A stretch of 56,684 bases of DNA. It comes from a virus. The position numbers were made by a program, and so were the translations under genes. The DNA lies in IMG/VR virus record IMGVR_UViG_3300033148_001052, positions 1-56,684 of that record, one strand, 5' to 3'. The notes below the pieces were generated by a model, which saw only the letters and a program-made list of their open reading frames with translations, made no database searches and was not told where the DNA came from. This document shows positions 5,098 through 20,188 of this stretch, in pieces. Positions within the stretch are counted from its first letter, which is position 1. The number at the start of each line of letters is the position of its first letter.

Positions 5098-5113
5098 TAT
5101 AACATTGTTATAA
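5098..5113. promoter_or_regulatory. Degenerate copy of the recurrent palindrome (TATAACATTGTTATAA)
   Basis: Perfect 16-bp palindrome with the same AACATTGTT core, 5 bp from the parS match. Confidence 0.4.
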
Positions 5114-5118
5114 CTAGG

Positions 5119-5826: not shown

Positions 5827-5841
5827 GTAACATTGTTACAA
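5827..5841 (+). promoter_or_regulatory. Recurrent near-palindrome GTAACATTGTTACAA (copy 1)
   Basis: Intergenic, 91 nt upstream of ATG 5933. Confidence 0.6.
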
Positions 5842-5854
5842 GGGTAAAAATAAA

Positions 5855-5891
5855 GGTTGCATTGGGAAATTGATTCCTGTAGGATGCAACC
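5855..5891 (+). other. Stem-loop in the leader of the first + strand gene (8-bp stem GGTTGCAT/ATGCAACC, 21-nt loop)
   Basis: Perfect inverted repeat read from the sequence. Confidence 0.4.
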
Positions 5892-5932
5892 TCAATACCA
5901 CTAACGGCCAATAGGCCACTGGAGAATACAAC

Positions 5933-6424
5933 ATGAACTATTTAGAAAACATCGCAGCATGGAAAATCGGTAACGCATCTAAGATTGACGCTGTTAGGGA
6001 TGCACTGTTAAACGGTGACGATGGGGGCGAGGCATTGGCAGAGGCATTAACAGAGGCGGTATCAGAATTTGTTATAAGCGAGGCGGACGTTAAGAGCTGG
6101 AATGCTACGCTCAACAGAGAGATCCACAAGGCGGCTCAATACGCTTGGGAGCAATCCACTGACAAGAAATTTGTTAAGGGCGCAGGGTATCAGGTGTTCG
6201 GATTCAAATGGCATAAGGCCGAAAGCGAGGTTGTATATGGTCTGGTCAATACCCGCAGCCATGCTCCCAAGGTGGACGCTGTTGAGAGTGAGGCCGATGC
6301 TACACCTGAACAGGCTCCCAAGGATAAGTTTCTCACCACTGTTGCCAAGTTTGCCGCAACTGCCAGCGACCAAGAAAAAGCGATGGTGGCGCGACTGATT
6401 GATACCATCATATCTAACCGCTAG
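5933..6424 (+). CDS. Hypothetical early protein (163 aa)
   Basis: ORF track. GGAGA 7 nt upstream of the ATG. Appears GC-richer than its flanks and sits between two non-coding regions. Confidence 0.7.
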   Translation: MNYLENIAAWKIGNASKIDAVRDALLNGDDGGEALAEALTEAVSEFVISEADVKSWNATLNREIHKAAQYAWEQSTDKKFVKGAGYQVFGFKWHKAESEVVYGLVNTRSHAPKVDAVESEADATPEQAPKDKFLTTVAKFAATASDQEKAMVARLIDTIISNR

Positions 6425-6583
6425 CCGCTAGCTAGTTGCTTTATGGTTGCCCTCGCCTTGAGGGTTCCCATAAGACAATTGTCTTAATGCTCTTTAACAG
6501 ATTAAGAACCACTGACATAGTGTAGGCTTTACAGGCCAAGCTATGCCTAGTGAGAAGTGCGACACCACCAAGTAAGCGTGGAT

Positions 6584-6598
6584 GTAACATTGTTACAA
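6584..6598 (+). promoter_or_regulatory. Recurrent near-palindrome GTAACATTGTTACAA (copy 2)
   Basis: In the non-coding region 6425-7028. Confidence 0.6.
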
Positions 6599-6736
6599 CA
6601 GATTCGAGAATTGATAGCCGGAAAAACTATGCTCTGAATGGGACAGGACTATACCCATCAACATAGATTAATAATGCCCTCAAATGGAGATTGGAGAGGG
6701 ACAGAGGACGGCCATATTGGTTCCTAAGAATTAAAT

Positions 6737-6750
6737 GTAACATGTTACAA
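6737..6750 (+). promoter_or_regulatory. Recurrent palindrome GTAACATGTTACAA (copy 3)
   Basis: In the non-coding region 6425-7028. Confidence 0.6.
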
Positions 6751-6986
6751 CATGACGAGATGGGTGGCATACAGCATATGCAAAGTATGAAGGCACTATA
6801 AAAGTATTATGAGATTGTGATTCTCTATGCACCACTGCTATTGTTTGCGGACAATAGAGCTTGGCAGTATAGGGGAGAGTGATGAATTAATACACTTATG
6901 AAAACGTAGTGGGACAGATGCGAGAGTAGGGATTCAATTGAAATACAATTGAGCGAGACTACACTGTCCCTATAGACAAGGGCTTT

Positions 6987-7001
6987 ACAACATTGTTACA
7001 A
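6987..7001 (+). promoter_or_regulatory. Recurrent near-palindrome ACAACATTGTTACAA (copy 4)
   Basis: 27 nt upstream of ATG 7029. Confidence 0.55.
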
Positions 7002-7028
7002 GAGTCTTTGATTATATAGGAGAATAAT

Positions 7029-7214
7029 ATGACTAGAAAAGATTACATTATATTAGCTAAGGCATTGAATAAAACTCTACCTGTAGACCACGACAACGCA
7101 GGTGGGGCAGTATGGCAGTATACAGTGGTGCCAATAGCTGAGGCATTGAAAGCTGACAATTCTAACATGGATTATGACAAGTTCATTGAAGCTTGCGTAG
7201 GAGAAATAGCATGA
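7029..7214 (+). CDS. Hypothetical protein (61 aa)
   Basis: ORF track. AGGAGA Shine-Dalgarno site. Confidence 0.65.
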   Translation: MTRKDYIILAKALNKTLPVDHDNAGGAVWQYTVVPIAEALKADNSNMDYDKFIEACVGEIA

Positions 7215-7483
7215 AACTTAAATGGAAACAGATGAACCGTAACGTGGTGCTGGATGGTGATGGATTCTTCATCTCCTACATACCACCTAATACAGCCCTA
7301 GCCTTAGAAGAATGGGAAGCTGATAATGGAGGTGATGAGACTGCCTTGATTATTGATGGGAAGTATTACATTCTCAATGGTGATGCTAGGGAGGCATATG
7401 AAGAACGTATCCATTCTATCAAGGAATGTATGGAGTTCTTTGAAGCAAATAGAGAGGGGAACATTTCCTCTTGGTCTAACTAG
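7211..7483 (+). CDS. Hypothetical protein (90 aa)
   Basis: ATG 7211 overlaps the previous stop (ATGA). The track ORF starts 18 nt earlier. Confidence 0.65.
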   Translation: MKLKWKQMNRNVVLDGDGFFISYIPPNTALALEEWEADNGGDETALIIDGKYYILNGDAREAYEERIHSIKECMEFFEANREGNISSWSN

Positions 7484-7496
7484 TAACATGTTACAA
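7483..7496 (+). promoter_or_regulatory. Recurrent palindrome GTAACATGTTACAA (copy 5)
   Basis: 16 nt upstream of ATG 7513; overlaps the preceding stop codon. Confidence 0.6.
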
Positions 7497-7512
7497 CAGA
7501 GAGGAGAATGAT

Positions 7513-7713
7513 ATGAAACAATTATTGTTTAGTGTTACTAGGGGGTATAAGCTGGATTTAGATGGGCGTGATACCGATGAGATGATAGCTAAGATGATTG
7601 AGGCTGTTGAAAATAATGATACGCTGATAGATTACTTCGGTGATATGCTAGACCTAGAGGAAATCTCTGAAGTGGTACACTTTGAAGGTAATGCTTGGGT
7701 TGAAGGAGAATGA
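7513..7713 (+). CDS. Hypothetical acidic protein (66 aa)
   Basis: ORF track. GAGGAGA Shine-Dalgarno site. Confidence 0.65.
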   Translation: MKQLLFSVTRGYKLDLDGRDTDEMIAKMIEAVENNDTLIDYFGDMLDLEEISEVVHFEGNAWVEGE

Positions 7714-7714
7714 T

Positions 7715-7978
7715 ATGAGTTATACAGTATCAAGGGATGCTGCTGATGTGTTGTTAGACATAGCTATCACACATAAAGTGAATGCTATTAAACAACTGAG
7801 GCGCATCACTGGCGCAGGATTAAAAGAGAGTAAGGACGCCATTGAAGATAAGTTTATTGGTGGAGGTGTAATTACTATTGCAGCAGGTGGGGGGAAGGAC
7901 AGTATTATTGAGGACTACATCAAGATGCAGATGTATCAGGCTCAGGTGTTTGAGAAACTAATGGAGCTGATGGAATGA
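7715..7978 (+). CDS. Protein resembling the ribosomal L7/L12 C-terminal domain (87 aa)
   Basis: KVNAIKQLRRITGAGLKESKDAIE aligns with E. coli L7/L12 [24 protein letters not shown] (about 14/24 identical). GAAGGAGA Shine-Dalgarno site before ATG 7715. Confidence 0.6.
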   Translation: MSYTVSRDAADVLLDIAITHKVNAIKQLRRITGAGLKESKDAIEDKFIGGGVITIAAGGGKDSIIEDYIKMQMYQAQVFEKLMELME

Positions 7979-8130
7979 AACCTAGAAAAGAATGGGCGAA
8001 AGAATGGATTGATGCTAATGTATGGGACGGTGAGGACAGGTCGGGAGCTAGTGGTGATTGGGTGAAGTTCTCTCCCGATGATTTGCAAGAGTTGATTGAT
8101 GATTTGCTAGATGCTATGGAGGAGGACTAA
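7975..8130 (+). CDS. Hypothetical acidic protein (51 aa; below the ORF-track cutoff)
   Basis: ATG 7975 overlaps the previous TGA (ATGA). 52 codons open to TAA 8128-8130. Confidence 0.5.
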   Translation: MKPRKEWAKEWIDANVWDGEDRSGASGDWVKFSPDDLQELIDDLLDAMEED

Positions 8131-8133
8131 GCT

Positions 8134-8148
8134 ATAACAATGTTACAA
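8134..8148 (+). promoter_or_regulatory. Recurrent near-palindrome ATAACAATGTTACAA (copy 6)
   Basis: 44 nt upstream of ATG 8193, followed by GTTCTTAGGAAC. Confidence 0.6.
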
Positions 8149-8192
8149 CAAGGGTTCTTAGGAACTATTATTAAACTAAAGAGGAAATTAAA

Positions 8193-8471
8193 ATGAACAA
8201 ACCAAATCAATTCCGTGTTGCCTATCGAATGAGTGGTCAAGCTCTAACCCGTACAGTGGAGAACATAGCTGACATCTATGGTATGCAACAAGTACAGTCT
8301 GTCACCCCCTTGTATGTAGAGGAATTCCCCGACCTGACAGAGAAGGAGATTAATGATGCCATCCAAGCTGAGTTTGCTAAGGAAGAACTCAAGAAGAAAC
8401 AAGAGGTGGTGAAGGAATGTGAAGATGCTCTGAATACTGCTAGGGCTGAACTGAATGAGATGGAACGATGA
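8193..8471 (+). CDS. Hypothetical protein (92 aa)
   Basis: ORF track. AGAGGA Shine-Dalgarno site. Confidence 0.65.
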   Translation: MNKPNQFRVAYRMSGQALTRTVENIADIYGMQQVQSVTPLYVEEFPDLTEKEINDAIQAEFAKEELKKKQEVVKECEDALNTARAELNEMER

Positions 8472-8578
8472 ATCTCTCTGACTTCATAGGAGGACTAATA
8501 CTAGCAACCTTTTTCTTAGTATTATTCTTGTGGGGTTGTGGGATTGTTGATGTTAATGAAATCTTACAAACTTTGTAA
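8468..8578 (+). CDS. Small membrane protein (36 aa, one hydrophobic helix)
   Basis: ATGA overlap with the previous stop. MNLSDFIGGLILATFFLVLFLWGCGIV... Confidence 0.45.
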   Translation: MNLSDFIGGLILATFFLVLFLWGCGIVDVNEILQTL

Positions 8579-8588
8579 CATGTTACAA
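8575..8588 (+). promoter_or_regulatory. Recurrent palindrome GTAACATGTTACAA (copy 7)
   Basis: 37 nt upstream of ATG 8626. Confidence 0.6.
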
Positions 8589-8625
8589 CGTGTTGCTAAA
8601 TGTATCTAACGTGGAGACAAATGTA

Positions 8626-8769
8626 ATGAACAATACTAATTGGGAAAAGGCGCTATTCAATATGCACCGAAGAAATCAACGGGTGATGATGGTGTTTGCT
8701 GCTGGTGGTGTGTTTGACAGTAGTTCTGTATGGACTCCAACTAAGGAGGACACAGGTCATGGCTGCTAA
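8626..8769 (+). CDS. Hypothetical small protein (47 aa)
   Basis: GGAGA 8 nt upstream of ATG 8626. Overlaps the next start by 11 nt. Confidence 0.4.
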   Translation: MNNTNWEKALFNMHRRNQRVMMVFAAGGVFDSSSVWTPTKEDTGHGC

Positions 8770-9169
8770 ATTTAAGGTGGGTGATAAGTTCAAACTAGAG
8801 GAATCCTATGCGTCTTTTGTAAAAGGCTCTACGATAACTTTAATTGTAGTGGAGGACGATGGAATCCACAGATATAGAGATGAAAAAGGAGATGAGCATT
8901 TCCTTAACGAGCGCAGATTAAAACCTATAGATTCCCCAAGGGTTGAATACACTCTACCGCAGCACAAGCGAACCGGGAAAATCACATTAGATAATGTACA
9001 CACAATAATCAAGGGTGCTATATGTAGTAATGATTTTATGGGTGGGTGTGTAGGTACAAGGAATGACGCAGGGTGTGAAGGTTGTGTCTTTGGTGGTATT
9101 ACTGGAACCAAGGACTCCTTCTATCAAATGATAATTGACATGGCTGAACAGGAGAATGACAATGGGTAA
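8759..9169 (+). CDS. Hypothetical protein (136 aa): KFKVGD beta-barrel-like N-terminus and a four-Cys C-terminal module
   Basis: AAGGAGGA Shine-Dalgarno site before ATG 8759 (the track ORF starts earlier). C-terminus AICSNDFMGGCVGTRNDAGCEGCVF...FYQMIIDM resembles the small Cys-protein family. Confidence 0.65.
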   Translation: MAAKFKVGDKFKLEESYASFVKGSTITLIVVEDDGIHRYRDEKGDEHFLNERRLKPIDSPRVEYTLPQHKRTGKITLDNVHTIIKGAICSNDFMGGCVGTRNDAGCEGCVFGGITGTKDSFYQMIIDMAEQENDNG

Positions 9170-9344
9170 GCCTATATACATTGTACTTGAGGAACACATA
9201 GCAGCACACCGCTTCCCTGTGCCTAGCCTAAGGGACTATCTATTCAGCGAGCTGTGTGTTAGACTTCCCTACCATGAATACAAAGAGAAGGTGAGTATTC
9301 TAGTGGATACACAAAGGAGACATAGCTATGCTAATGTCAGCTAA
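9162..9344 (+). CDS. Hypothetical protein (60 aa)
   Basis: AGGAGA before ATG 9162. Confidence 0.55.
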   Translation: MGKPIYIVLEEHIAAHRFPVPSLRDYLFSELCVRLPYHEYKEKVSILVDTQRRHSYANVS

Positions 9345-9528
9345 GATGGAACGGATGATAGTGAAGGCCAAGTATTACCGGCGCTCTACCATCATAGAGT
9401 TCCTAAGAACAGAACTACATCAACTTCGTAGAGAGGAGAGGGTGACAGCTAGAATTCTTAGGGAATTGGAATGGGAAGAACAACTTGAGAAATTACAGAC
9501 TGAAGTAGATGAGGAGAATAGAACATGA
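9328..9528 (+). CDS. Hypothetical protein (66 aa, charged helical)
   Basis: ORF track. AAGGAGA Shine-Dalgarno site. Confidence 0.6.
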   Translation: MLMSAKMERMIVKAKYYRRSTIIEFLRTELHQLRREERVTARILRELEWEEQLEKLQTEVDEENRT

Positions 9529-9764
9529 ATACATCAATGCAAGGTAGTACAGTGTGGTATGGAGATATATTCCAATTACCTGAGGGAGTGGAGGACTTCA
9601 TGTTAGCTGATGAGGCTGACCCTATTCTTGATAGTGAAGATTTATTCTTCCCTACATGGGAAGGGAAGGAGGAGAACATTGTAAACTATGAGGAGCTTAT
9701 GAACATACAAGACTTCTATGTAGCCGAGGGATTGGATGTGAAGGAGGTGTGTGATGAAATTTAA
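9525..9764 (+). CDS. Hypothetical acidic protein (79 aa)
   Basis: ATGA overlap. GAGGAGA Shine-Dalgarno site. Confidence 0.6.
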   Translation: MNTSMQGSTVWYGDIFQLPEGVEDFMLADEADPILDSEDLFFPTWEGKEENIVNYEELMNIQDFYVAEGLDVKEVCDEI

Positions 9765-10467
9765 AGTCGGTGATAGGGTACAGATTGTAAAGGGCACTAG
9801 GCATTACGGGGCAGATGATGCTAATCCTGCTGACGTAGAGGGTGTTGTCACTAGTGATGATGAGAGTGATGAGCACAATCTATATGTAGATTGGGACAAT
9901 GGCACTAACAATTCTTATGAGGACAGTGACCTAGAGGCTGCTCCCCCTGTAAGCACAGGTATTGAATCTATCTTAGAACAATACGCTGCCATAAAATCCT
10001 CTGATGATATGATACAGGAGGCAAGAGGGAGTGCTTATGGTGAGATGGTGGCACATGTAAACATGTTGCTAGAGAAAACTCCCGGAGCTGGTCGTGAACA
10101 CATTGAAAACCTATTCTCCGAGCGTGAACAACAGTACATGGAGAAGCATCATGCTGGTGATGAGACATACCAGAAGGGTAATGGCACATGGAATATGAGT
10201 ATGGTGTTTGATGGTGCTTACAAGAGTGCTAAGAGTACAGTGTTGGGTGCTGTAGGTGCTGGTGTAACATTGTTACAAGAGGATGGTACAGCTAAAGGTA
10301 AGAGCAGGTTAGGTAAGGAGACTAAGGAGAGAATGATACAGCCTGTAGATACCTTAGTGAGTGTAGCTATGAGTAAAGCAGCAGAGCTTGTGGTAGCCTA
10401 CGCCCACCTATCTGACCCTGAAGAACGTGAAGTTGTTCGTGAATTTATACACAGCTCTATTATTTAG
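9754..10467 (+). CDS. Hypothetical protein (237 aa) with a KFKVGD beta-barrel-like N-terminus
   Basis: AAGGAGG 6 nt before ATG 9754. N-terminus is paralogous to 8759-9169. Confidence 0.7.
   Translation: MKFKVGDRVQIVKGTRHYGADDANPADVEGVVTSDDESDEHNLYVDWDNGTNNSYEDSDLEAAPPVSTGIESILEQYAAIKSSDDMIQEARGSAYGEMVAHVNMLLEKTPGAGREHIENLFSEREQQYMEKHHAGDETYQKGNGTWNMSMVFDGAYKSAKSTVLGAVGAGVTLLQEDGTAKGKSRLGKETKERMIQPVDTLVSVAMSKAAELVVAYAHLSDPEEREVVREFIHSSII
10264..10278 (+). promoter_or_regulatory. Recurrent near-palindrome GTAACATTGTTACAA (copy 8, intragenic)
   Basis: Full-length copy inside CDS 9754-10467. Confidence 0.5.
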
Positions 10468-10476
10468 GAGGGTGCT

Positions 10477-10725
10477 ATGAGAACAGGTGAGGTATATCAG
10501 ACACGGGATGGAGGGCTTGTCATTAGGGTTGATAAGAATGATTACCCTGTTGATGAGTCTATAAAAAACGACCACCATTTCTGGGTACAACATCCCAAGC
10601 TTGATGGTAGTGGTAGTATTGGTGATGTTATATTTCAGATAGAGTTAGATGGTAATCCTTATGTAACACCATTAAACATTAATATATTTGACATACTTAA
10701 CGAGGTAATTAAAAATGAATCTTGA
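10477..10725 (+). CDS. Hypothetical protein (82 aa)
   Basis: ORF track. AGGAGGG Shine-Dalgarno site. Confidence 0.6.
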   Translation: MRTGEVYQTRDGGLVIRVDKNDYPVDESIKNDHHFWVQHPKLDGSGSIGDVIFQIELDGNPYVTPLNINIFDILNEVIKNES

Positions 10726-12430: not shown

Positions 12431-12684
12431 TGGTTTATATACCCAAAGTAAAGCGAGAGGGTTTGGAGGCTAGTGTAAAGCAAACTGGCAGAGATTTATC
12501 TGCTGATGTGTTCCTAGATGCTTTAGTGGTAGCTGCTTGTCATGGTAGATTTGACATACCTCTAGCGACAGTTGATAGGAAATCTGTGTTTGATTGTGGT
12601 GGTATAAACTGTGGCTCTTGTATGTTTAAATCCAAAGAGGCTTTCTTAGAGGGGCTGTTACAACACATGGAGGAAGAGACATGA
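12430..12684 (+). CDS. Small four-Cys protein, family member 1 (84 aa)
   Basis: TGATG overlap with the VWA gene. VVAACHG...FDCGGINCGSCMF...FLEGLLQHMEEE. Confidence 0.65.
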   Translation: MVYIPKVKREGLEASVKQTGRDLSADVFLDALVVAACHGRFDIPLATVDRKSVFDCGGINCGSCMFKSKEAFLEGLLQHMEEET

Positions 12685-12905: not shown

Positions 12906-12955
12906 ACCCCCTTCAGAGGCTCTGTAAGCCTCACCACTGGACGAACGGAGGGATG

Positions 12956-12975
12956 CCTAGGCTACCCCCTTATAA
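12956..12975. repeat. 20-bp exact inverted-repeat partner of 5523-5542
   Basis: cctaggctacccccttataa is the reverse complement of ttataagggggtagcctagg. Confidence 0.85.
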
Positions 12976-12986
12976 CAATGTTACAA
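12972..12986 (+). promoter_or_regulatory. Recurrent near-palindrome ATAACAATGTTACAA (copy 9)
   Basis: 55 nt upstream of ATG 13042. Confidence 0.6.
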
Positions 12987-13041
12987 CGCTTTAGAACGGC
13001 TTATATTAAGCCAACATATTTAAACAAAGAGGAATAAAACA

Positions 13042-14142
13042 ATGACTACATCTACACTAGAAAGTAAAGTGAAGGAAGTGCTGGCTCGTAAGATGGGTGG
13101 AACTACTGCTCCACCTACACCTAAGACTCCTGCTAAGGAACCAGCAACATTCATCAAGTCTCGTATGGACAAGGTGGGGAAGAAGGCTGCATCGGGATAT
13201 GTTAAATACTCTGAGCTGTTTGGACAAACACCTCCCTCTGGTAATGATTGGGATGTGAAGGTGTTTGCTGACAGTGATTGGGATGAGGATGATAAGGTAT
13301 TTATTCCTAGCAAGGAGAAGTTCGAGGACTACGTTATCAACCATGCTGTCATGGAGCAACTGATTGTTGGATATAATTCTAACATGAAGATGCTTGTGGT
13401 TGGCCCAACAGGGAGTGGTAAGACTAGTTTGCAAGAACTACTGTGTGCCTACATCAACCAACCCTACTACCGTATCAATGGTCGTCAGGATATGGAGACT
13501 GACACCCTGCTCGGTAAGCCTTGGGTGAGTGAGGGGTCTATGCACTATGAGAAGGGTGAGCTGCCTAAGGCTCTTAAGAAGGGATGGTATGTAGCCTTTG
13601 ATGAGCCTTGGAAAACTCCTGCTGGAATTCAAATGGCTCTTCAACGCTTCTATGAGAAGGATGGTATTCTACAGCTTGATGATATGCCCGGAAGCTTGGC
13701 AGATAAGCAGGTGATTAGTGATCCTCGTACCCGTCTGGTGCTGAGTGATAATGTTGTAGGCACAGGGGATGGTGCTGACCAATACGGAGCCACCATGATT
13801 CAGGATGGGTCTACACTCAATCGTATGGACATGGTGATTAAGATGCCTTACATGAATCAAGCAGAGGAAGCCACGCTTATTCGTAAGAAGCACCCTGCCA
13901 TCTCTAAGGATGCAGCTACTAAGATGGTTAAGTTCTTTAACCTTGTACGTACAAGCTACACTCAGCGTATTGTATCTGCTGCTGTATCTCCTCGTAACTA
14001 TGATGCTTGGGCAAACCTAGCTACCAAGCTTAACAACCTTGAGATGGCCTGTAAATGGACTGTGCTTGAGCGTTACGCAGAGGATAGTGAGAAGGCTGTT
14101 GTTCGTGACCATTATAAAACTGTGTTCGGTAAGGTGCTGTAA
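13042..14142 (+). CDS. AAA+ ATPase, CobS/MoxR-like
   Basis: Walker A VVGPTGSGKTS, Walker B YVAFDEPW, 366 aa, next to the VWA protein. Confidence 0.8.
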   Translation: MTTSTLESKVKEVLARKMGGTTAPPTPKTPAKEPATFIKSRMDKVGKKAASGYVKYSELFGQTPPSGNDWDVKVFADSDWDEDDKVFIPSKEKFEDYVINHAVMEQLIVGYNSNMKMLVVGPTGSGKTSLQELLCAYINQPYYRINGRQDMETDTLLGKPWVSEGSMHYEKGELPKALKKGWYVAFDEPWKTPAGIQMALQRFYEKDGILQLDDMPGSLADKQVISDPRTRLVLSDNVVGTGDGADQYGATMIQDGSTLNRMDMVIKMPYMNQAEEATLIRKKHPAISKDAATKMVKFFNLVRTSYTQRIVSAAVSPRNYDAWANLATKLNNLEMACKWTVLERYAEDSEKAVVRDHYKTVFGKVL

Positions 14143-14153
14143 CACTGTTACAA
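14139..14153 (+). promoter_or_regulatory. Recurrent near-palindrome GTAACACTGTTACAA (copy 10)
   Basis: Overlaps the stop codon of the ATPase gene, 44 nt upstream of ATG 14198, followed by GTTCCTAGGAAC. Confidence 0.6.
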
Positions 14154-14162
14154 TAAGTTCCT

Positions 14163-14186
14163 AGGAACATGGACGTTCCTTTTATT
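14163..14186 (+). terminator. Possible intrinsic terminator
   Basis: AGGAAC-atggac-GTTCCT stem-loop followed by TTTATT. The stem is only 6 bp. Confidence 0.35.
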
Positions 14187-14197
14187 CAGGAGGGTTT

Positions 14198-14377
14198 ATG
14201 GACTACAGTAATGAAGTGGAAGTGGAGAGGGTTTGGCGTAAGGGATATGCCATGCGGTATCTAAAGAATCCTCATAGGAAAGAAGTCTCTGCATTATTAA
14301 CTGCTGCCAGATTGGCTGGTTATGATAGGATAGCTGTGATACTAGAAGCTATGAAAGAATTAGAGAAGGAGGAATAG
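14198..14377 (+). CDS. Hypothetical protein (59 aa; below the ORF-track cutoff)
   Basis: CAGGAGGG Shine-Dalgarno site before ATG 14198. 60 codons to TAG 14375-14377. Confidence 0.5.
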   Translation: MDYSNEVEVERVWRKGYAMRYLKNPHRKEVSALLTAARLAGYDRIAVILEAMKELEKEE

Positions 14378-14379
14378 AT

Positions 14380-14574
14380 ATGTATATACCTGAAGACTTA
14401 TCTGATTTAAATTTGAAGGGTGTAATGGACATGATGCATTATGTTGCATGTATTGAAGCCGAAGATAATGGGAATGTGATAAAGTGTGTTGAAGGTTGCA
14501 ATAAAGAATGTGTGTTCTTTAATAGAGAGAATCTATTGCAAGCTTTGTTAGATGAATTATCTGAGGAGAAATAG
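14380..14574 (+). CDS. Small four-Cys protein, family member 3 (64 aa)
   Basis: HYVACIEAEDNG..IKCVEGCNKECVFF..LLQALLDELSEE. Confidence 0.65.
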   Translation: MYIPEDLSDLNLKGVMDMMHYVACIEAEDNGNVIKCVEGCNKECVFFNRENLLQALLDELSEEK

Positions 14575-14576
14575 AT

Positions 14577-14834
14577 ATGCCTGAATATAATACAGAGGTA
14601 GACTTTGGTGCTGCTGGAACACATGATGTTGAAGTGGACGTTGATTATGATTGGATGTGGGAATACATTATAGATGATATTGATAGCAGCACAATGATAC
14701 AATGGATAGATGACCATAGCTTATTACCTGATGTGGTAAGGGACAGTGAGGCTGATGATGTCTTGGATGCCTTGAATAAAGATGACATCCTTAAGTATGT
14801 AGCTAAGATGCTTGACATTGAGGAGGCAACATGA
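14577..14834 (+). CDS. Hypothetical acidic protein (85 aa)
   Basis: ORF track. GAGGAGA Shine-Dalgarno site. Confidence 0.6.
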   Translation: MPEYNTEVDFGAAGTHDVEVDVDYDWMWEYIIDDIDSSTMIQWIDDHSLLPDVVRDSEADDVLDALNKDDILKYVAKMLDIEEAT

Positions 14835-15031
14835 GTGGTGTAAAGCAGGTTAATATAGATTATTGGGAACGACAGGTATCGAATGAGGAGCAGGTGAGGA
14901 TTAGAAGTTTGTTGACGATAACTGATCTAACTGAGGACGAGCGTGAAGATATTATAGAATCTTGTATAGAGGAGATGAGGCATGAAGAGGAGAGAGCGAA
15001 ACACACCAGCTATTATATGCCCCCATTCTAA
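14831..15031 (+). CDS. Hypothetical protein (66 aa)
   Basis: ATGA overlap. GAGGAGG Shine-Dalgarno site. Confidence 0.6.
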   Translation: MSGVKQVNIDYWERQVSNEEQVRIRSLLTITDLTEDEREDIIESCIEEMRHEEERAKHTSYYMPPF

Positions 15032-15299
15032 TCAAGAGGAACATAGACTTTATAAGTCTCTTATCTTAGAAGGGTGTAGTGATAGGGAAGCATGGGATGT
15101 TATTAGGGAAGCTAAGAGGGAGGTGGAGCATCCTTGGATTCCTGAGCCTCCTCGTCCTGATTTACAAGCCTTTATTGATATGGCTAAGGCTATGGATGCT
15201 GCTGATATTAGACGTAGTGCTGTTATACGAATGGATGCAAGGTCTACAGAGGAGTACACTAGAATGATTGGGGAGACTAGATATGGAATACCTACATAA
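14982..15299 (+). CDS. Hypothetical protein (105 aa); 50-nt overlap with the previous ORF, possibly one gene broken at a C5 run
   Basis: ORF track. Removing one C from C5 at 15020-15024 would fuse the two ORFs. Confidence 0.5.
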   Translation: MKRRERNTPAIICPHSNQEEHRLYKSLILEGCSDREAWDVIREAKREVEHPWIPEPPRPDLQAFIDMAKAMDAADIRRSAVIRMDARSTEEYTRMIGETRYGIPT

Positions 15300-16104
15300 A
15301 GATGAGTATATGCACCTAGCTCCTGATGAAGCTGGTAGTGTGAGAGTCAACCATGACAGTGATGATTGTCAAGGCGACAGTAAATCAATGATAATTACGA
15401 GGAAAGAAGATGGAACAATTAATGCTTGCTGTTTTAGGTGCGGCCTCTACGGTTCTTATAGTGAAGTTTACTATAGACCTGCGACATCTACGAAGCCGAC
15501 TGTTTGCCTTGGAGATGGTAGTAGGCCATGTCTTAAGCTCCCCTACGATGCAGAAGGAGATCATGCCAAATGGCCGCCTCAAGCTAGGGTCTGGATTTAC
15601 GGAGGGAGACTCAGCTCAGACCAAACAAGAGAGCTAGGTGCTGTCTATAGCCCTAGCATGGGGAGAGTGTTGCTCCCTGTGTATGATTGGGAAGAGAGGA
15701 GCAGACTAATAGGCTGGGTTAGTAGGAAGATTAAGGCAGATGATAGTAGACCAAAGTATTTAACTGAGACACTTGACAACAGCAAATTTATATGGTATAA
15801 TAATACCTTCGGTGGTTCAGACACCTTAGTCATTACAGAAGATATACTTTCTGCTTTAAGAACATCTAAATATTATCCTTCACTATCTCTCTTAGGAGTT
15901 TACTTAAAACCTGCTGCTCTTAGTATAGTTAAACAATATACTAAGTTTATTATTTGGTTAGATAATGACAACCCTCAAGTTAAGAGACAACAATTAGTTC
16001 TTAAGAATTCTTTAGAGCTTATAGGTGATGTAATAATATTACACACTGCTAAAGACCCTAAGAGTTATTCAGATGATGAGATGAAAGAGGTGTTAGGAAT
16101 ATGA
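15283..16104 (+). CDS. DNA primase (zinc-binding + TOPRIM)
   Basis: Cys cluster CQGD..ACCFRCG, TOPRIM-like LVITEDILSA and IWLDNDNP. GGGAGA before ATG 15283 (the track starts at a TTG 15 nt earlier). Confidence 0.8.
   Translation: MEYLHKDEYMHLAPDEAGSVRVNHDSDDCQGDSKSMIITRKEDGTINACCFRCGLYGSYSEVYYRPATSTKPTVCLGDGSRPCLKLPYDAEGDHAKWPPQARVWIYGGRLSSDQTRELGAVYSPSMGRVLLPVYDWEERSRLIGWVSRKIKADDSRPKYLTETLDNSKFIWYNNTFGGSDTLVITEDILSALRTSKYYPSLSLLGVYLKPAALSIVKQYTKFIIWLDNDNPQVKRQQLVLKNSLELIGDVIILHTAKDPKSYSDDEMKEVLGI
15773..15801 (+). promoter_or_regulatory. Perfect sigma70 promoter TTGACA-N17-TATAAT with extended -10 (TGgTATAAT), inside the primase ORF
   Basis: ttgacaacagcaaatttatatggtataat. Confidence 0.7.
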
Positions 16105-17574: not shown

Positions 17575-17575
17575 T

Positions 17576-17773
17576 ATGAAAAGAAAGATGCCTGTGCCTA
17601 TTAAGCATATCACTACTAGGAGATTCTTATTAGGAGGACTATGTAATGCCAGTGAGTGTGGGCCAGCGGATTGTTCTAATTGCTCTTATGATTATAAGGA
17701 CAAAGGGGACAACACTATAACAAACAAAGAACTATGGGAGGCATTTAATAATGTACTTGATTACAGACCTTGA
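17576..17773 (+). CDS. Small four-Cys protein, family member 4 (65 aa)
   Basis: LLGGLCNASECGPADCSNCSY...LWEAFNNVLDY. Confidence 0.6.
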   Translation: MKRKMPVPIKHITTRRFLLGGLCNASECGPADCSNCSYDYKDKGDNTITNKELWEAFNNVLDYRP

Positions 17774-18926
17774 GACTTCTGTGAAGAATGTTGGGGAGGG
17801 AGCAATAGGAACTAACAAAGCTAATGTCCATCATCCAGATAATAGGATTGTTATGTATGGCTTTAAGATGGAGGGGAAGCCAGAAGTTACAGGACATTAT
17901 AAGGAGTCTCATGTTAAGGGCATGACAATCCCACCTGAGAAATGGAAGAATGTTGACATATTAGTAGGACACAATGTTAAGTTTGACATTCAATACCTAT
18001 GGAAGTTCCATCCTGAACTCAAGCCTTGGTTTAATACAGGGAAGATATGGGACACACAGTTGGCGGAGTACATCCTGTCAGGACAGACACATCTATACCC
18101 TAAGCTAGACGATTGCTCTGTTAAGTATGGAGGTACACTTAAGGACGATAGGATAAAGGACTATTGGAATTCAGGTGTTGACACTGAGGACATCCCTGAG
18201 CATGAGCTTAAGGAATATCTTGAGTGGGACTTGAAGAACACAGAGACAGTGTTCCTACATCAAGTAGCTAAGGCAGAAGAACTAGGGATGATAGATTTGA
18301 TATGGTTCCAGATGGATGCCTTGCTATGTACAACAGAGATGGAATGGAATGGTATGTACTTCAACAGAGAGACAGCCGAGGTGTTGTCTGATAAGGTAGG
18401 GAGGCAGAGGGATGCGTTGCTAGATAAGCTAACTATTGTCATGGAAGCTGCGGGTATTCGTGATGTCAATCCTTTAAGTAATGACCATGTATCCTTGTTC
18501 TTCTTTGGTGGAGAGCAGAAGTATAGAGCTAGGGTTCCTATTATGGATGAGGTTACAGGGATGCAGAAGGTGTATGGCCCTACAGCTATGAAGGCAGGGC
18601 AAGGTAAGTTTAGAATAGAGGACAGGGTAGAGAGCATCAAAGGGTTTTTAGTTCCTAAGAAAGAATATGAAGCTAAGAAGCCGGGGTTCTACAAGGTGAA
18701 TGATGAGGTGATGAATGACATCAAGGGGGACAGTGAGCTGGCGTTAGATTTCCTTAAGCTAAGACAGCTTAATAAAGACATCAATACATATTACAAGGGG
18801 TATAGTGATTTGGTGTGGCCTAATGGTTTGATACATGGTAGCTTGAATCATTGTGCTACTGCGACTGGTCGCCTATCTTCAACAAAGCCCAACATGCAAA
18901 ACATATCTAGCTATGAGGAGGAATAA
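17751..18926 (+). CDS. Family A DNA polymerase, part 1 (3'-5' exonuclease plus N-terminal polymerase region)
   Basis: Exo I ITDLET, Exo II HNVKFDIQYL. Ends right after TGRLSSTKPNMQNI. Confidence 0.85.
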   Translation: MYLITDLETSVKNVGEGAIGTNKANVHHPDNRIVMYGFKMEGKPEVTGHYKESHVKGMTIPPEKWKNVDILVGHNVKFDIQYLWKFHPELKPWFNTGKIWDTQLAEYILSGQTHLYPKLDDCSVKYGGTLKDDRIKDYWNSGVDTEDIPEHELKEYLEWDLKNTETVFLHQVAKAEELGMIDLIWFQMDALLCTTEMEWNGMYFNRETAEVLSDKVGRQRDALLDKLTIVMEAAGIRDVNPLSNDHVSLFFFGGEQKYRARVPIMDEVTGMQKVYGPTAMKAGQGKFRIEDRVESIKGFLVPKKEYEAKKPGFYKVNDEVMNDIKGDSELALDFLKLRQLNKDINTYYKGYSDLVWPNGLIHGSLNHCATATGRLSSTKPNMQNISSYEEE

Positions 18927-18928
18927 CT

Positions 18929-19156
18929 ATGGGCATAGAAGAACTTAAATTATTCTGGGCTAACATTGAGAGTGAGAAGGAGATAGACCAGAGGCTTACC
19001 TATCAACACATGATGAACAAGAGTGTCTCCGATACACCCTTGACACACATTGAGCATACATATCTCTATAGGTATAAGGGGAAGTTTGAGAGTGTAGAGG
19101 CACATGAGATTGACATTAGTTATGCTAAGATATTCTTAGTGGGAGGAGGGAAATGA
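18929..19156 (+). CDS. Hypothetical protein (75 aa) in the gap of the split polymerase
   Basis: GAGGAGGA Shine-Dalgarno site, ORF track. Confidence 0.55.
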   Translation: MGIEELKLFWANIESEKEIDQRLTYQHMMNKSVSDTPLTHIEHTYLYRYKGKFESVEAHEIDISYAKIFLVGGGK

Positions 19157-19323
19157 ATAGTAAGGAGTTACAGATTATCTCAGACTTGGTGGTGAAGTTG
19201 ACAGAGCTAAGGCAAAGCAAATGCCCTCAGTTATGTGTAGAGAACTTCGCTACTAATTGTTTTGGACAACTACTTGGGGAATATACAATGCACAAGCAAG
19301 GAATGATTAGACTAGGAGAATAG
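19153..19323 (+). CDS. Hypothetical protein (56 aa) in the gap of the split polymerase
   Basis: ATGA overlap with the previous stop. 57 codons to TAG 19321-19323. Confidence 0.45.
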   Translation: MNSKELQIISDLVVKLTELRQSKCPQLCVENFATNCFGQLLGEYTMHKQGMIRLGE

Positions 19324-19324
19324 T

Positions 19325-20188
19325 ATGAGCCAGATTAAAGAATGCTTTGAGTCTAGGTATGGGGAGGATGGTGTCATTATGGAGGCTGACTTCTCTCAGC
19401 TAGAAGTAATTGGGCTGGCCTTTATATCAGGAGACAAGCAGCTAAAGAAAGATATTGAGGATGGGTTGGACAGTCATTGTCTTAATGCAAGCCTATTGTA
19501 CAATGAAGACTATTCTTTTATTAAATCTAGGGTGGATGCAGGGGATAAGGAATGGATTAAGAAACGTAAGATGAGTAAGGCTCCGGGATTCCTCATCATC
19601 TATGGTGGTGGGGCTATGGCTATGGCTAAGGCTACAGGGCTACCACAGGCTCAGTGTCAGGAGTTCATAGACAACTACTACTCTAGGTATTGGAGAGTGA
19701 AGGAATGGCAGGACGAGGTGATACAGGACGTTAGAGATAGCAGGGTGATGACTACCAAGCGTACTGCTGCTGGATTCCCTGCTGGTCAGGGGGAATACAT
19801 ATCCATCACAGGTAGAAAATATGTATTTACAGAGTATGATGCACCTGATTGGATGATGGAGAAGACAAGCTTCTCTCCTACACAGATGAAGAACTATGGT
19901 ATCCAAGGGTTTAGTACAGGAGACTTGGTTCCCTTGGCACTAGGTAAGTTATATAGAAAGATTAAGGAGAGGTTTAATGAAGAAGTAAAACTAATCAACA
20001 CCATCCATGATAGTGTGTTGCTTGACTGCCCTGTAACATGTTACAAGGAAGTGGCACAGGTTGTTAAGGAAGTATTAGAAGATACACCAGCATACTTTGA
20101 GGAGATATATGGGATTGAGTTTCCCTTAGAACTCAAGGTTGATGTAGAAGTTGGAGAGACTTGGGCAACTAAGGCTTCAATTAAATAG
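19325..20188 (+). CDS. Family A DNA polymerase, part 2 (motifs A, B and C)
   Basis: Motif A IMEADFSQLEV, motif C-like TIHDSVLLD. AGGAGA Shine-Dalgarno site. Confidence 0.85.
   Translation: MSQIKECFESRYGEDGVIMEADFSQLEVIGLAFISGDKQLKKDIEDGLDSHCLNASLLYNEDYSFIKSRVDAGDKEWIKKRKMSKAPGFLIIYGGGAMAMAKATGLPQAQCQEFIDNYYSRYWRVKEWQDEVIQDVRDSRVMTTKRTAAGFPAGQGEYISITGRKYVFTEYDAPDWMMEKTSFSPTQMKNYGIQGFSTGDLVPLALGKLYRKIKERFNEEVKLINTIHDSVLLDCPVTCYKEVAQVVKEVLEDTPAYFEEIYGIEFPLELKVDVEVGETWATKASIK
20033..20046 (+). promoter_or_regulatory. Recurrent palindrome GTAACATGTTACAA (copy 11, intragenic)
   Basis: Inside the 3' end of polymerase part 2, 150 nt upstream of the -35 at 20197. Confidence 0.5.

What the first reader, a model, noticed from the sequence alone, without database searches (positions are those of the whole stretch)
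5827..20046. Directional near-palindrome GTAACA(N0-1)TGTTACAA repeated at least 11 times at early-gene cassette boundaries
Full copies start at 5827, 6584, 6737, 6987, 7483, 8134, 8575, 10264, 12972, 14139 and 20033. There is a degenerate copy at 5098. Half-sites (TGTTACAA) lie near 12229, 12655 and 30366, with one on the minus strand near 36331.

The 8-mer TGTTACAA alone is expected only about twice in this genome.

- All full copies face the same way. The right flank is always TGTTACAA(C/G/T), while the left arm varies ((G/A/C)(T/A)AACA).
- Nine copies occupy nearly every intergenic gap in the 5.8-14.2 kb early region, 16-91 nt upstream of a start codon.
- Two copies are intragenic.
- The arms are too close together (0-1 nt) for an RNA hairpin.
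- No consistently spaced -10 element follows, and no phage RNA polymerase gene is visible.

Inference: these are operators for a dimeric phage or host DNA-binding protein that controls the early cassettes. Less likely, they are an unconventional promoter class or recombination boundary sequences.
Basis: seen in the sequence. Interest (0 to 1): 0.65.

Follow-up and report, generated by a model that had tools for sequence, protein, structure and literature searches.

The report
Repeated dyad motif before phage early genes
An uncultured marine phage carries 11 copies of a sharply defined 15-bp near-palindrome in front of its early genes; related phages carry their own versions at matching places, so it is a real gene-control signal, most likely a promoter combined with a protein-binding site, whose reader is unknown.

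Summary
TGTTACAA occurs 16 times against 2.2 expected. Eleven full copies of (T)GTAACA-N0-1-TGTTACAA-S-R all point with the plus-strand genes. Nine of the 11 lie in intergenic DNA, which is 7% of that gene block (P=2e-9). Every gap between 5.7 and 14.2 kb has a copy; no later gap has a full one.

The isolated half-sites are at chance level, and two of them are not conserved in a close relative.

The window is a complete 56.6-kb HMO-2011-type podophage with no recognisable RNA polymerase, sigma factor or repressor.

New here:
- The motif belongs to a clade-wide family, RTAAC-N2-3-GTTAY-AA-S. Relatives L135 and L004 use TATAAC..GTTATAAS.
- More distant relatives, L006 and L012, have different dyads at the same gene junctions.
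- Both arms changed together between lineages. Hairpins are too weak to be the functional form.
- The gene-proximal arm reads as an extended -10 element (TGT-TAYAAS) with no -35.

Best reading (about 0.4): -35-less early promoters overlapped by an operator for a co-evolving dimeric protein, probably phage-encoded. A pure operator, an unknown phage-specific promoter class and an RNA-level signal all remain open.

A second clade-wide palindrome (GTTCYTARGAAC, 7 copies), a canonical parS site and a mini-tmRNA were noticed in passing.

The parts
5827..5841 (+). Motif A copy, GTAACA-T-TGTTACAA. It lies 91 nt before the first early ORF (5933), and its leader 5842-5932 is strongly structured.
   Evidence: leader z=-3.7
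6584..6598 (+). Motif A copy (N1 spacing), in the ORF-poor 605-nt gap 6425-7028.
6737..6750 (+). Motif A copy (N0 spacing), in the same ORF-poor gap.
6987..7001 (+). Motif A copy with a degenerate left arm (ACAACA). It lies 27 nt before ATG 7029 and cannot form a hairpin.
7483..7496 (+). Motif A copy (N0 spacing), 16 nt before ATG 7513. The Shine-Dalgarno (SD) sequence starts 3 nt after the motif.
8134..8148 (+). Motif A copy with a hybrid left arm (ATAACA), 44 nt before ATG 8193. A motif B copy follows 4 nt later.
8153..8166 (+). Motif B copy (GGTTCTTAGGAACT), directly downstream of the motif A copy at 8134.
8575..8588 (+). Motif A copy; with its flanks it is a perfect 16-bp palindrome, TTGTAACATGTTACAA. 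It lies 37 nt before ATG 8626. In L137 the equivalent site is GATAACGCTGCTATAAGC.
10264..10278 (+). Intragenic motif A copy in ORF 9754-10467. It falls close to where the tblastn similarity to relatives' shorter homologs ends (query residues about 188-192 in four of six loci). It is identical in L137.
12972..12986 (+). Motif A copy with a hybrid left arm (ATAACA), 55 nt before the ATPase gene start (ATG 13042). It is conserved in L010, where the left arm is GTAACA and a 66-nt indel lies just upstream.
14139..14153 (+). Motif A copy overlapping the ATPase stop codon, 44 nt before ATG 14198. It is conserved in L010 (spacer C to T), although the downstream ORF is replaced there.
14156..14169 (+). 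Motif B copy (AGTTCCTAGGAACA) just after the motif A copy at 14139. It overlaps a terminator-like hairpin at 14163-14180.
20033..20046 (+). Intragenic motif A copy in the C-terminal DNA polymerase A (PolA) fragment. It sits in a loop that varies between relatives, 155 nt before the gene's stop.
5098..5113 (+). Degenerate motif A copy of the relatives' type (TATAACATTGTTATAA), in the 1.5-kb non-coding region, 5 nt before a canonical parS site.

Best explanation
Motif A is the control signal of the early transcription units.

- **Promoter half.** The invariant, gene-proximal half (TGT-TACAA-S) acts as an extended -10-type promoter core that needs no -35 element. Host RNA polymerase would read it, possibly with the help of a small phage protein.
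- **Operator.** The whole dyad, TGTAACA-(0-1)-TGTTACA, is the operator of a dimeric DNA-binding protein. Because the arm sequence differs between related phages, that protein is most likely phage-encoded. It would switch the early cassettes on or off together, much as lambda Cro does at early promoters.
- **Why the right arm is better conserved.** It carries both constraints, so it is invariant and always faces the genes.

Shown: the enrichment, placement, orientation, conservation, concerted change of both arms, weak hairpins, and the absence of a -35 element and of a phage RNA polymerase gene.

Inferred: that transcription starts there, and that a phage dimer binds there.
For: - **Enrichment and placement:** 16 hits against 2.2 expected; 9 of 11 copies intergenic (P=2.3e-9); a copy in every gap from 5.7 to 14.2 kb.
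- **Sharp definition:** no enrichment of one-mismatch variants.
- **No ordinary promoters:** sigma-70-type promoters are not enriched in the early region, 33 found against 27.7 expected.
- **No other polymerase or regulator found:** Pfam, PHROGs and NCBIfam give no RNA polymerase, sigma factor or repressor.
- **Conservation in the close relative L010:** both full copies are kept while half-sites, a neighbouring indel and the downstream ORF differ.
- **Clade-wide family RTAAC-N2-3-GTTAY-AA-S before early genes:** L135 has copies at 1112, 1185 and 1924. L004 has copies at 481, 1340 and 2755, each 20-100 nt before SD+ATG.
- **Different dyads at the same junction** between the g9754 homolog and CobT (cobalt-chelatase-like vWA protein): L006 at 1091, L012 at 8253, L004 at 2755.
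- **Concerted arm change:** A:T in relatives becomes G:C in both arms in the window. Hybrid copies remain at 8134 and 12972.
- **Hairpins are weak:** 0 to -4.2 kcal/mol, and three copies cannot fold.
- **The right arm resembles a real -10:** in relatives it is TGTTATAAS, one base from the TGATATAA -10 of canonical CTTGAC-N17 promoters in HMO-2011.
- **Precedent:** -35-less extended -10 phage promoters are known in Thermus phage P23-45 (PMC3950348).
Against: - The hexamer TACAAS lacks the T at -7 that sigma-70 normally needs. The host is unknown.
- L004 copies lack the TG of an extended -10.
- At 7483, at L135 1185 and at L006 410 and 1091, the motif abuts the SD. A start about 7 nt after the hexamer would remove most of the leader.
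- The spacing between arms varies by 1 bp, which many dimers tolerate poorly.
- No DNA-binding protein could be linked to the motif.
- Two copies (6584, 6737) precede no convincing ORF.
- A plausible sigma-70-like promoter (TTGGCA-17-TAATAT, 5629-5657) could on its own drive the whole early block.
- There are no transcript data.
Confidence: 0.4

Rival explanations
1. Pure operator or roadblock. The dyads are binding sites for a dimeric regulator that blocks or modulates read-through transcription coming from an upstream promoter such as 5629-5657. They have no promoter activity of their own. This is the first reader's main idea and is functionally like mycobacteriophage stoperators.
For: - The dyad symmetry and the concerted change of both arms.
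- Copies sit in gaps as short as 29 nt, where a separate promoter cannot fit.
- The motif abuts the SD at several sites.
- A candidate sigma-70-like promoter lies upstream of the first copy.
- Orientation-dependent intergenic repressor sites have a precedent in stoperators (PMC9283540, PMC6550527).
Against: - No repressor, integrase or lysogeny module was found.
- A symmetric operator does not explain the strict co-orientation, the invariant right arm or the conserved 3' AA-S-R.
- The arm spacing varies by 1 bp.
Confidence: 0.25
2. Autonomous phage-specific promoter class. An unrecognised phage-encoded sigma-like factor or a cryptic RNA polymerase reads the motif, and transcription starts at or inside the 3' AA-S-R. 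The distribution would then resemble T7 class II/III promoters or T4 late TATAAATA promoters.
For: - The distribution is T7-like: 9 intergenic copies plus 2 intragenic copies near gene 3' ends, all co-oriented, with an invariant core.
- The motif sequence is lineage-specific.
- Almost all early ORFs are orphans with no family match, so a novel factor could be hidden among them.
- A start inside the motif would remove the problem of SD adjacency.
Against: - No RNA polymerase or sigma domain was found in any ORF.
- The only very large protein (1242 aa) is homologous to proteins of HMO-2011 and of pelagiphages. HMO-2011 uses sigma-70 promoters. The protein matches no solved polymerase.
- Known phage RNA polymerase promoters are not palindromic, apart from N4 hairpin promoters. 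Here three copies cannot form a hairpin.
- An early-class promoter would need the factor to be delivered with the DNA.
Confidence: 0.12
3. RNA-level signal. The sequence acts in the early polycistronic mRNA as a processing site or as a translational operator next to the SD. This would be comparable to T7 RNase III sites or to the start-associated sequences of cluster K mycobacteriophages (the latter from memory).
For: - The motif is strictly on the coding strand.
- It lies 0-55 nt before the SD at most copies.
- The 3' part, nearest the SD, is the best conserved.
- The L012 version forms hairpins of -6 to -8 kcal/mol.
Against: - The window's hairpins are weak or absent.
- Arm mismatches are A·C or C·C, not G·U.
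- A single-stranded RNA reader would not need the left arm to change together with the right arm.
- Two copies precede no ORF.
Confidence: 0.1
4. Recombination boundary. The repeats mainly serve as short homology for shuffling early orphan-gene cassettes between phages, as proposed for PeSLs in T4-type phages and seen for the cluster O palindromes.
For: - The copies flank orphan early ORFs, which are replaced between close relatives: the ORF after 14139 in L010, and an inserted ORF in L137.
- A 66-nt indel abuts copy 12972.
- Precedents are PMC2839356 and PMC4122927 and PMC4351075.
Against: - The mosaic breakpoints seen against L010 fall at SD, start-codon and stop-codon junctions, not at the motif. 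Breakpoints also occur where there is no motif, for example at 12430.
- Fifteen bp is short for homologous exchange.
- This does not explain the dyad, the orientation or the conservation across the clade. It is more likely a side effect than the function.
Confidence: 0.08

Closest known systems
Cluster O mycobacteriophage 17-bp palindromic repeat TGTTCGGNNNCCGAACA (PMC4351075)
   Same: - A short dyad with arms that are invariant within one genome.
- Many copies in short intergenic gaps plus some inside genes.
- Absent from unrelated genomes.
- Suspected to be a site for a dimeric regulator; function unknown.
- Recombination between copies produces indels.
   Different: - The sequence and spacing differ: 7-bp arms with a 3-bp spacer.
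- Cluster O has 34 copies spread genome-wide with no clear orientation.
- Motif A has 11 copies, in the early region only, strictly co-oriented, with a conserved asymmetric 3' flank.
- The window's second palindrome, motif B (TGTTC-YTAR-GAACA), is the closer look-alike.
Lambda-type Cro/CI operators overlapping early promoters (from established knowledge)
   Same: These are pseudo-palindromic operators of about 17 bp that overlap the -10/-35 elements of early promoters. A small phage dimer reads them and turns early transcription down. Operator and protein co-evolve between related phages.
   Different: - Lambda has a few operators at two promoters; this phage has a copy at nearly every early gap.
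- No Cro/CI-like HTH gene was identified here.
- No -35 element is present.
- The arms abut each other (0-1 bp).
Extended -10, -35-less phage promoters of Thermus phage P23-45 (PMC3950348)
   Same: A conserved TGn plus -10-like element without a -35, used by host RNA polymerase under the control of small phage proteins.
   Different: - In P23-45 these are middle/late promoters and are not palindromic.
- Here the hexamer is TACAAS, without T at -7.
- No homolog of the P23-45 RNA polymerase-binding proteins (gp39/gp76) was identified in the family scans.
Stoperators of cluster A mycobacteriophages (PMC9283540, PMC6550527)
   Same: Many copies in short intergenic gaps within operons, oriented with transcription and read by a phage protein.
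   Different: - Stoperators are asymmetric 13-14 bp sites read by a monomeric immunity repressor in temperate phages.
- They are spread over the whole genome.
- Motif A is a dyad, confined to the early region, in a phage with no visible lysogeny genes.
T7-group phage RNA polymerase promoters (from established knowledge)
   Same: The distribution matches: one sharply conserved motif before many gene clusters, all co-oriented, some inside the 3' end of the upstream gene, with no terminators between copies.
   Different: - T7 promoters need a phage single-subunit RNA polymerase; none is encoded here.
- T7 promoters are about 23 bp long and are not palindromic.
PeSL promoter-plus-stem-loop cassettes of T4-type phages (PMC2839356, PMC4122927)
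   Same: Repeated regulatory motifs flanking orphan early genes in variable regions. They are implicated in cassette shuffling.
   Different: PeSLs combine a sigma-70 early promoter with a stem-loop. Here there is no -35/-10 pair, and there is no consistent stem-loop next to the motif.

Membership tests
Bacterial sigma-70 -35/-10 promoter | A TTGACA-like -35 hexamer 16-18 bp upstream of the -10 hexamer | tested here: not met
   The best -35 score upstream of TAYAAS averages 2.61 of 6, against a background of 2.53. The promoter scan of 4300-15300 finds 33 sites against 27.7 expected.
Bacterial sigma-70 -35/-10 promoter | A TATAAT-like -10 hexamer with A at position 2 and T at position 6 | tested here: not met
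   The window hexamer is TACAA(C/G/T). Position 6 is C or G in 10 of 11 copies and T in only one (and reading).
Extended -10 (-35-less) promoter | A TG dinucleotide one base upstream of a -10-like hexamer, with no -35 needed | tested here: inconclusive
   TGT precedes TACAAS in 11 of 11 window copies and in 3 of 4 L135 copies, but in 0 of 3 L004 copies. The hexamer matches the consensus at 4 of 6 positions in the window and 5 of 6 in relatives. Transcription start sites are unknown.
Single-subunit phage RNA polymerase (T7-type) promoter | The phage encodes a T7-like RNA polymerase | tested here: not met
   No RNA polymerase family match in Pfam or PHROGs for the curated + strand ORFs from 5933 to 31153 or for ten minus-strand ORFs, including the 1242-aa protein. 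The other minus-strand ORFs (tail fibre, portal, terminase, capsid and others) were not scanned.
N4-type hairpin promoter | A stable 5-7 bp stem with a 3-nt loop in every promoter, plus a giant RNA polymerase carried in the virion | tested here: not met
   Three of 11 copies cannot fold, and the others reach only -0.4 to -4.2 kcal/mol. The largest ORF is 1242 aa and matches no polymerase by sequence or profile.
Stoperator system (cluster A mycobacteriophages) | An asymmetric 13-14 bp site read by a monomeric immunity repressor, distributed genome-wide in a temperate phage | tested here: not met
   The site here is a dyad. Copies occur only between 5.8 and 20 kb. No repressor or integrase family was found. 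Only the co-orientation with transcription is shared.
Cluster O-type palindromic repeat | The consensus TGTTCGGNNNCCGAACA, in more than 30 copies genome-wide | tested here: not met
   The sequence differs and there are 11 copies. It is the same kind of object but not the same family.
PeSL cassette | A composite of a sigma-70 early promoter and an adjacent stem-loop | tested here: not met
   There is no -35/-10 pair. Only 2 of 8 downstream leaders are more structured than shuffled sequence.
parS / ParB centromere site | The 16-bp palindrome TGTTNCACGTGNAACA | tested here: not met
   In motif A the half-sites are in the opposite arrangement (ACA|TGT at the centre). The only true parS site is at 5119-5134.
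Dimeric-repressor operator (generic) | Dyad symmetry whose two arms co-vary between lineages; protein binding demonstrated | tested here: inconclusive
   The dyad and the concerted arm change are shown. Binding cannot be tested with these tools, and no candidate protein was identified.

The most novel reading that the evidence does not exclude
HMO-2011-like marine phages of this CobS/CobT (AAA+ ATPase / vWA protein)-carrying clade run their early genes with a previously unknown phage-encoded specificity factor. This would be a sigma-like protein, a protein that redirects RNA polymerase, or a cryptic polymerase hidden among the orphan early or virion proteins. It would read lineage-specific dyad promoters (motif A). 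A second clade-wide palindrome (motif B, T-GNNC-YTAR-GNNC-A) would be a second promoter or operator class.
Probability: 0.15. Interest if true: 0.8.

Novelty: new variant of a known kind. Interest (0 to 1): 0.5.

Why it matters
HMO-2011-type phages infect SAR11, SAR116 and Roseobacter hosts (records). They are reported to be among the most abundant marine viruses (from memory). A search of the held library for HMO-2011 plus 'promoter' returned five papers with only passing mentions, judged from titles and abstracts. Exact searches for the motif B strings found nothing, and hits to the motif A 8-mers looked unrelated on their titles.

A sharply defined signal that marks every early cassette gives three things:
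- a handle for annotating early transcription units in uncultured phage genomes;
- a bait sequence for finding the unknown regulator, because the signal changes in step between lineages;
- a natural set of orthogonal pairs of promoter/operator and reader.

It also places this clade beside the still unexplained cluster O mycobacteriophage palindromes. That suggests such dyad arrays are a recurrent solution in phages.

Tried and rejected
**Searches for relatives**
- Megablast of 5-25 kb against GenBank phages found no match.
- IMG/VR protein-anchored scans found only distant relatives, none carrying TGTTACAA.
- A motif scan of IMG/VR gave singletons only. The few loci with several TGTTACAA copies are unrelated coding repeats or iteron-like arrays near terminase genes.
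- Both metagenome scans found nothing.

**Searches that failed technically**
- A concatenated-protein query in the large homolog search returned nothing, probably because the candidate list saturated.

**Looking for equivalent motifs in relatives**
- Exact 8-mer and 9-mer enrichment picked up only coding-sequence repeats. Searches restricted to gaps and to palindromes were needed.

**Cryptic virion RNA polymerase**
- The 1242-aa protein has no Pfam, PHROGs or PDB match, alone or as a profile.
- It is shared with phages that use sigma-70 promoters.

**Candidate DNA-binding proteins**
- AlphaFold models of the HTH ORF 21969 and of ORF 9754-10467 were too poor to use, with pLDDT 48.7 and 44.7.
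- NCBIfam gave nothing relevant to regulation; its only hit was a sub-threshold L7/L12 match for ORF 7715-7978.
- The first early proteins of the window and of L012 are not detectably related.

**Ideas rejected**
- A general 5' stem-loop after the motif, as in PeSLs.
- A -35 element upstream of the motif.
- Host identification from the 3' end of the tmRNA-like RNA: exact matches occur in many phyla.
- The exact conservation of copy 10264 in L137 is not independent evidence, because the flanking coding sequence is equally conserved.
- Literature string searches for the motif A 8-mers returned about 1,700 papers, mostly unrelated on their titles. Searches for the motif B strings found none.

Full report
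**What the window is**

The first and last 114 nt of the window are identical, so this is a circularly assembled, complete genome of about 56,570 bp.
- Plus-strand genes run from about 5.9 to 31.2 kb. First come many small orphan ORFs.
- These are followed by a CobT-like vWA protein, a CobS/MoxR-like ATPase, primase, DnaB helicase, a split DNA polymerase A (PolA), an exonuclease and a ribonucleotide reductase.
- The rest of the genome is minus-strand structural and packaging genes.
- The large terminase is 59-61% identical to those of Pelagibacter phages HTVC115P, 104P and 103P, and about 50% identical to those of Puniceispirillum phage HMO-2011 and the CRP roseophages. The window is therefore an HMO-2011-type podophage.
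- There is no nucleotide-level match in GenBank phages, and ARAGORN calls no tRNA genes.

**Check of the observation**

- TGTTACAA occurs 16 times against 2.23 expected; 0 of 100 shuffles reach that number. Fourteen hits are on the plus strand. It is the most over-represented strand-specific 8-mer in the genome.
The full pattern is expected 0.005 times in shuffled sequence.
- Seven copies have a 1-nt spacer and four have none.
- The 3' flank is also conserved. After TGTTACA comes A in 11/11 copies, C or G in 10/11 and a purine in 11/11, giving the consensus (T)GTAACA-N0-1-TGTTACAA-S-R.
- Intergenic DNA is 7.1% of the plus-strand block, yet it holds 9 of the 11 copies (P=2.3e-9). All seven gaps between 5700 and 14197 carry at least one copy. 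None of the six gaps between 20189 and 30392 carries a full copy.
- One-mismatch variants are at background level and are not intergenic, so the element is sharply defined.

- Copies 6584 and 6737 lie in a 605-nt gap without a convincing ORF.
- The isolated half-sites number 4 against about 2.2 expected by chance.
- 12224 and 12656 are not conserved in a close relative.
- Short hairpins can form in 8 of 11 copies, but they are weak (0 to -4.2 kcal/mol), and copies 6987, 8134 and 12972 cannot fold at all.

**Close relatives**

Only two fragments of close relatives exist in the collections searched.

L010 is a JGI contig of 2.7 kb whose ATPase is 98% identical to the window's.
- It keeps both full copies that flank the ATPase gene.
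- At the equivalent of 12972 its left arm is GTAACA rather than ATAACA, and a 66-nt indel lies just upstream.
- At the equivalent of 14139 the spacer differs (C to T), and the motif and leader are kept although the downstream ORF is replaced.

L137 is an NCBI metagenome contig that is 69-77% identical at the nucleotide level.
- It keeps the 10264 copy exactly. Its coding flanks are equally conserved, so this is not independent evidence.
- At the equivalent of copy 8575 it has GATAACGCTGCTATAAGC.

**Distant relatives: the main new result**

HTVC115P, HTVC104P, HMO-2011 and the IMG/VR relatives are not enriched for TGTTACAA. Gap-restricted and palindrome-restricted searches then showed that phages sharing the CobT-CobS-primase-DnaB-split-PolA synteny carry equivalent dyads.
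- **L135:** TATAACAGTGTTATAAC, TATAACTAAGTTATAAG and TATAACTTGTTATAAG in its early gaps, plus two intragenic copies.
- **L004:** TATAACTAGTTATAAC, TATAACCAGTTATAAC and TATAACTAGTTATATC, each 20-100 nt before an SD and ATG.

The family consensus is RTAAC-N2-3-GTTAY-AA-S.
- The window differs from these relatives by a G:C pair in place of an A:T pair at the same position of both arms.
- Its copy at 5098 and the L137 site are of the A:T type.
- Copies 8134 and 12972 are hybrids, with the old left arm and the new right arm.

More distant lineages have different dyads at the same places.
- **L006:** T[GA]CTAAA-N-TTTAGCAA[GC], 3-7 nt before SD+ATG.
- **L012:** GTTCTAA-N4-TTAGAAC, with eight plus-strand copies, five of them in early intergenic DNA. 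Four copies have a perfect right arm with an imperfect left arm, against one of the reverse kind.
- At the junction between the homolog of ORF 9754-10467 and CobT, L004 (2755), L006 (1091) and L012 (8253) each carry their own dyad.
- In the window, the intragenic copy at 10264 falls close to where the tblastn similarity to the shorter homologs of four of the six relatives ends.

HMO-2011 itself shows canonical promoters, CTTGAC-N17-TGATATAA, and L004 also has CTTGACA-N17-TAnnnT sites.

**What this says about mechanism**

Four points constrain the reading.
1. The element is conserved as an architecture, but its arms are lineage-specific and identical within a genome.
2. Both arms changed together and hairpins are unstable. 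The recognised form is therefore most likely double-stranded DNA bound by a symmetric dimer.
3. The element is nevertheless directional. The gene-proximal arm is invariant, the 3' AA-S(-R) is conserved in the window and in L135, and all copies face the genes. In relatives that arm reads TGTTATAAS, one base from the extended -10 element of genuine HMO-2011 promoters. In the window it reads TGT-TACAAS.
4. There is no -35 element. Ordinary sigma-70 promoters are not enriched in the early region. No phage RNA polymerase, sigma factor or repressor was detected.

The 1242-aa virion protein is homologous to proteins of HMO-2011 and of the pelagiphages, and it matches no solved polymerase.

I therefore favour -35-less, extended -10-type early promoters, each overlapped by the operator of a Cro-like phage dimer, at a confidence of about 0.4. 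Extended -10, -35-less phage promoters have a precedent in Thermus phage P23-45 (PMC3950348).

Weak points:
- There is no T at -7 of the hexamer.
- L004 copies have no TG.
- Several copies abut the SD, which leaves almost no leader.
- The arm spacing varies by 1 bp.
- Two copies precede no ORF.
- The host is unknown.

The rivals, in order, are a pure operator or roadblock (0.25), an unknown phage-specific promoter class (0.12), an RNA-level processing or translational signal (0.10), and recombination boundaries as the primary role (0.08). For the last, the mosaic breakpoints against L010 fall at gene junctions rather than at the motif.

**Comparison with known systems**

- The nearest described object is the unexplained 17-bp palindrome TGTTCGGNNNCCGAACA of cluster O mycobacteriophages. 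It has 34 copies with invariant arms, is both intergenic and intragenic, and was suggested to be a site for a dimeric regulator (PMC4351075).
- Stoperators share the co-orientation and the placement in gaps. They are asymmetric, read by a monomer, genome-wide and belong to temperate phages (PMC9283540).
- PeSLs share the flanking of orphan early genes, but they are composites of a sigma-70 promoter and a stem-loop. No such composite is present here.
- T7-type promoters share the distribution but need a phage RNA polymerase.
- Motif A is a member of none of these families. It is a new variant of the general kind 'phage-specific repeated regulatory motif'.

**Other things seen**

- **Motif B.** A second palindrome, GTTCYTARGAAC, occurs 7 times against about 0 expected.
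  - Relatives carry T-GNNC-YTAR-GNNC-A with arms that differ between lineages: GTTC/GAAC, GTCC/GGAC and GCCC/GGGC.
  - It is often found inside genes at homologous positions.
  - It sometimes lies directly downstream of motif A, in the order A, then B, then SD-ATG. This occurs at 8134/8153 and 14139/14156 in the window and at the CobT junction in L004.
- **parS.** A canonical parS site, TGTTCCACGTGAAACA, lies at 5119-5134.
- **Mini-tmRNA.** A 79-nt tRNA-like domain of tmRNA lies at 20799-20877.

**Limits**

There are no transcript or binding data. Only two short close relatives are available. The host is unidentified. The structure predictions were uninformative. One large search was wasted on a concatenated query.

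Noticed in passing
window 8153-8166, 9398-9411, 14156-14169, 21528-21541, 25906-25919, 30548-30561, 42106-42119; near-matches at 12067, 17463, 31134, 37302, 43078 and 51084: A second palindrome, motif B (GTTCYTARGAAC), has 7 copies against about 0 expected. Relatives carry T-GNNC-YTAR-GNNC-A in 3-8 copies each. Their arms differ between lineages (GTTC/GAAC, GTCC/GGAC, GCCC/GGGC), and copies often lie inside genes at homologous positions. It resembles the cluster O repeat TGTTCGG..CCGAACA. Its function is unknown.
   Followed up: partly
window 5119-5134: An exact canonical chromosomal parS site, TGTTCCACGTGAAACA (0.06 expected), lies in the 1.5-kb ORF-poor region, 5 nt after the degenerate motif A copy. 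L012 has TGTTCCACG half-sites in its equivalent region. Three small tandem ParB-N-like ORFs (QIR.GNNRY) lie at 29124-29504, 29498-29854 and 30122-30379, with only weak Pfam and PHROGs hits.
   Followed up: partly
window 20799-20877 (+): An Rfam tmRNA hit (66.3 bits, E=1e-23) covers only 79 nt: the acceptor stem, the T-arm and an encoded CCA, with no mRNA-like part. This is a tRNA-like-domain-only 'mini-tmRNA', sitting between the SSB-like ORF and ORF 20898. ARAGORN missed it, and a rescan of the sub-range did not recover it. Its 3' end matches tmRNAs of many phyla.
   Followed up: partly
window 4794-4837 and 51446-51489: A 44-nt repeat, 93% identical between the two copies, lies upstream of the packaging genes and just after the capsid gene. 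Read on the minus (late-gene) strand it contains CCAAC-TA-GTTACAC followed by GTTATAAG, which is a motif-A-like element. It may be a late-class regulatory site.
   Followed up: no
window 4445-5932 and 6425-7028: There are two long ORF-poor stretches.
- The first contains the degenerate motif A copy, the parS site, a tandem repeat of 12 nt x2 (ATCCTGTGAAAC, 5670-5693), and a sigma-70-like site TTGGCA-17-TAATAT at 5629-5657.
- The second holds three motif A copies and no convincing ORF, so it may give non-coding transcripts.
   Followed up: partly
window 7715-7978: An 87-aa early ORF matches the C-terminal domain of ribosomal protein L7/L12 (Pfam PF00542, 27.1 bits against a cut-off of 25.9; TIGR00855 E=6e-6).
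   Followed up: no
window 8759-9169 (C-terminal part), 12430-12684, 12681-12905, 14380-14574, 17576-17773: Five small ORFs share a cysteine-rich block (C-x-G-x2-C-x2-C) followed by an acidic helix. They look like paralogs. No family match was found.
   Followed up: no
window 32239-32275 / 43246-43282; 12062-12092 / 37290-37320; 5523-5542 / 12956-12975: Three long-range inverted repeats of 37, 31 and 20 nt. The 31-nt pair contains a motif-B-like sequence, AGTTCCTGAGAACA. The 20-nt perfect pair abuts motif A copy 12972, and related sequence appears in the 66-nt insertion in L010.
   Followed up: no
window 17751-18926 and 19325-20188: The family A DNA polymerase is split into two ORFs separated by two small ORFs. 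The same split is seen in relatives L012 and L133-L136.
   Followed up: no
window 31150-31686 and 31683-32201 (-): Two adjacent ORFs of similar length (178 and 172 aa) both end in KRL; one matches sialyltransferase family GT29 (Pfam E=7e-6).
   Followed up: no
window 54905-54958: A perfect 27-nt tandem duplication (ACCACCCTTGATAGGGAGGGTATTAAG x2).
   Followed up: no
loci L066 (1925-1960), L129 (6050-6270), L091 (980-1170), L061 (1740-1990): Unrelated IMG/VR phages carry dense arrays of TGTTACA/TGTAACA half-sites within 100-250 bp. In L061 and L066 the arrays lie near terminase genes. They look like iterons or packaging-site arrays and are not the same phenomenon as motif A.
   Followed up: partly
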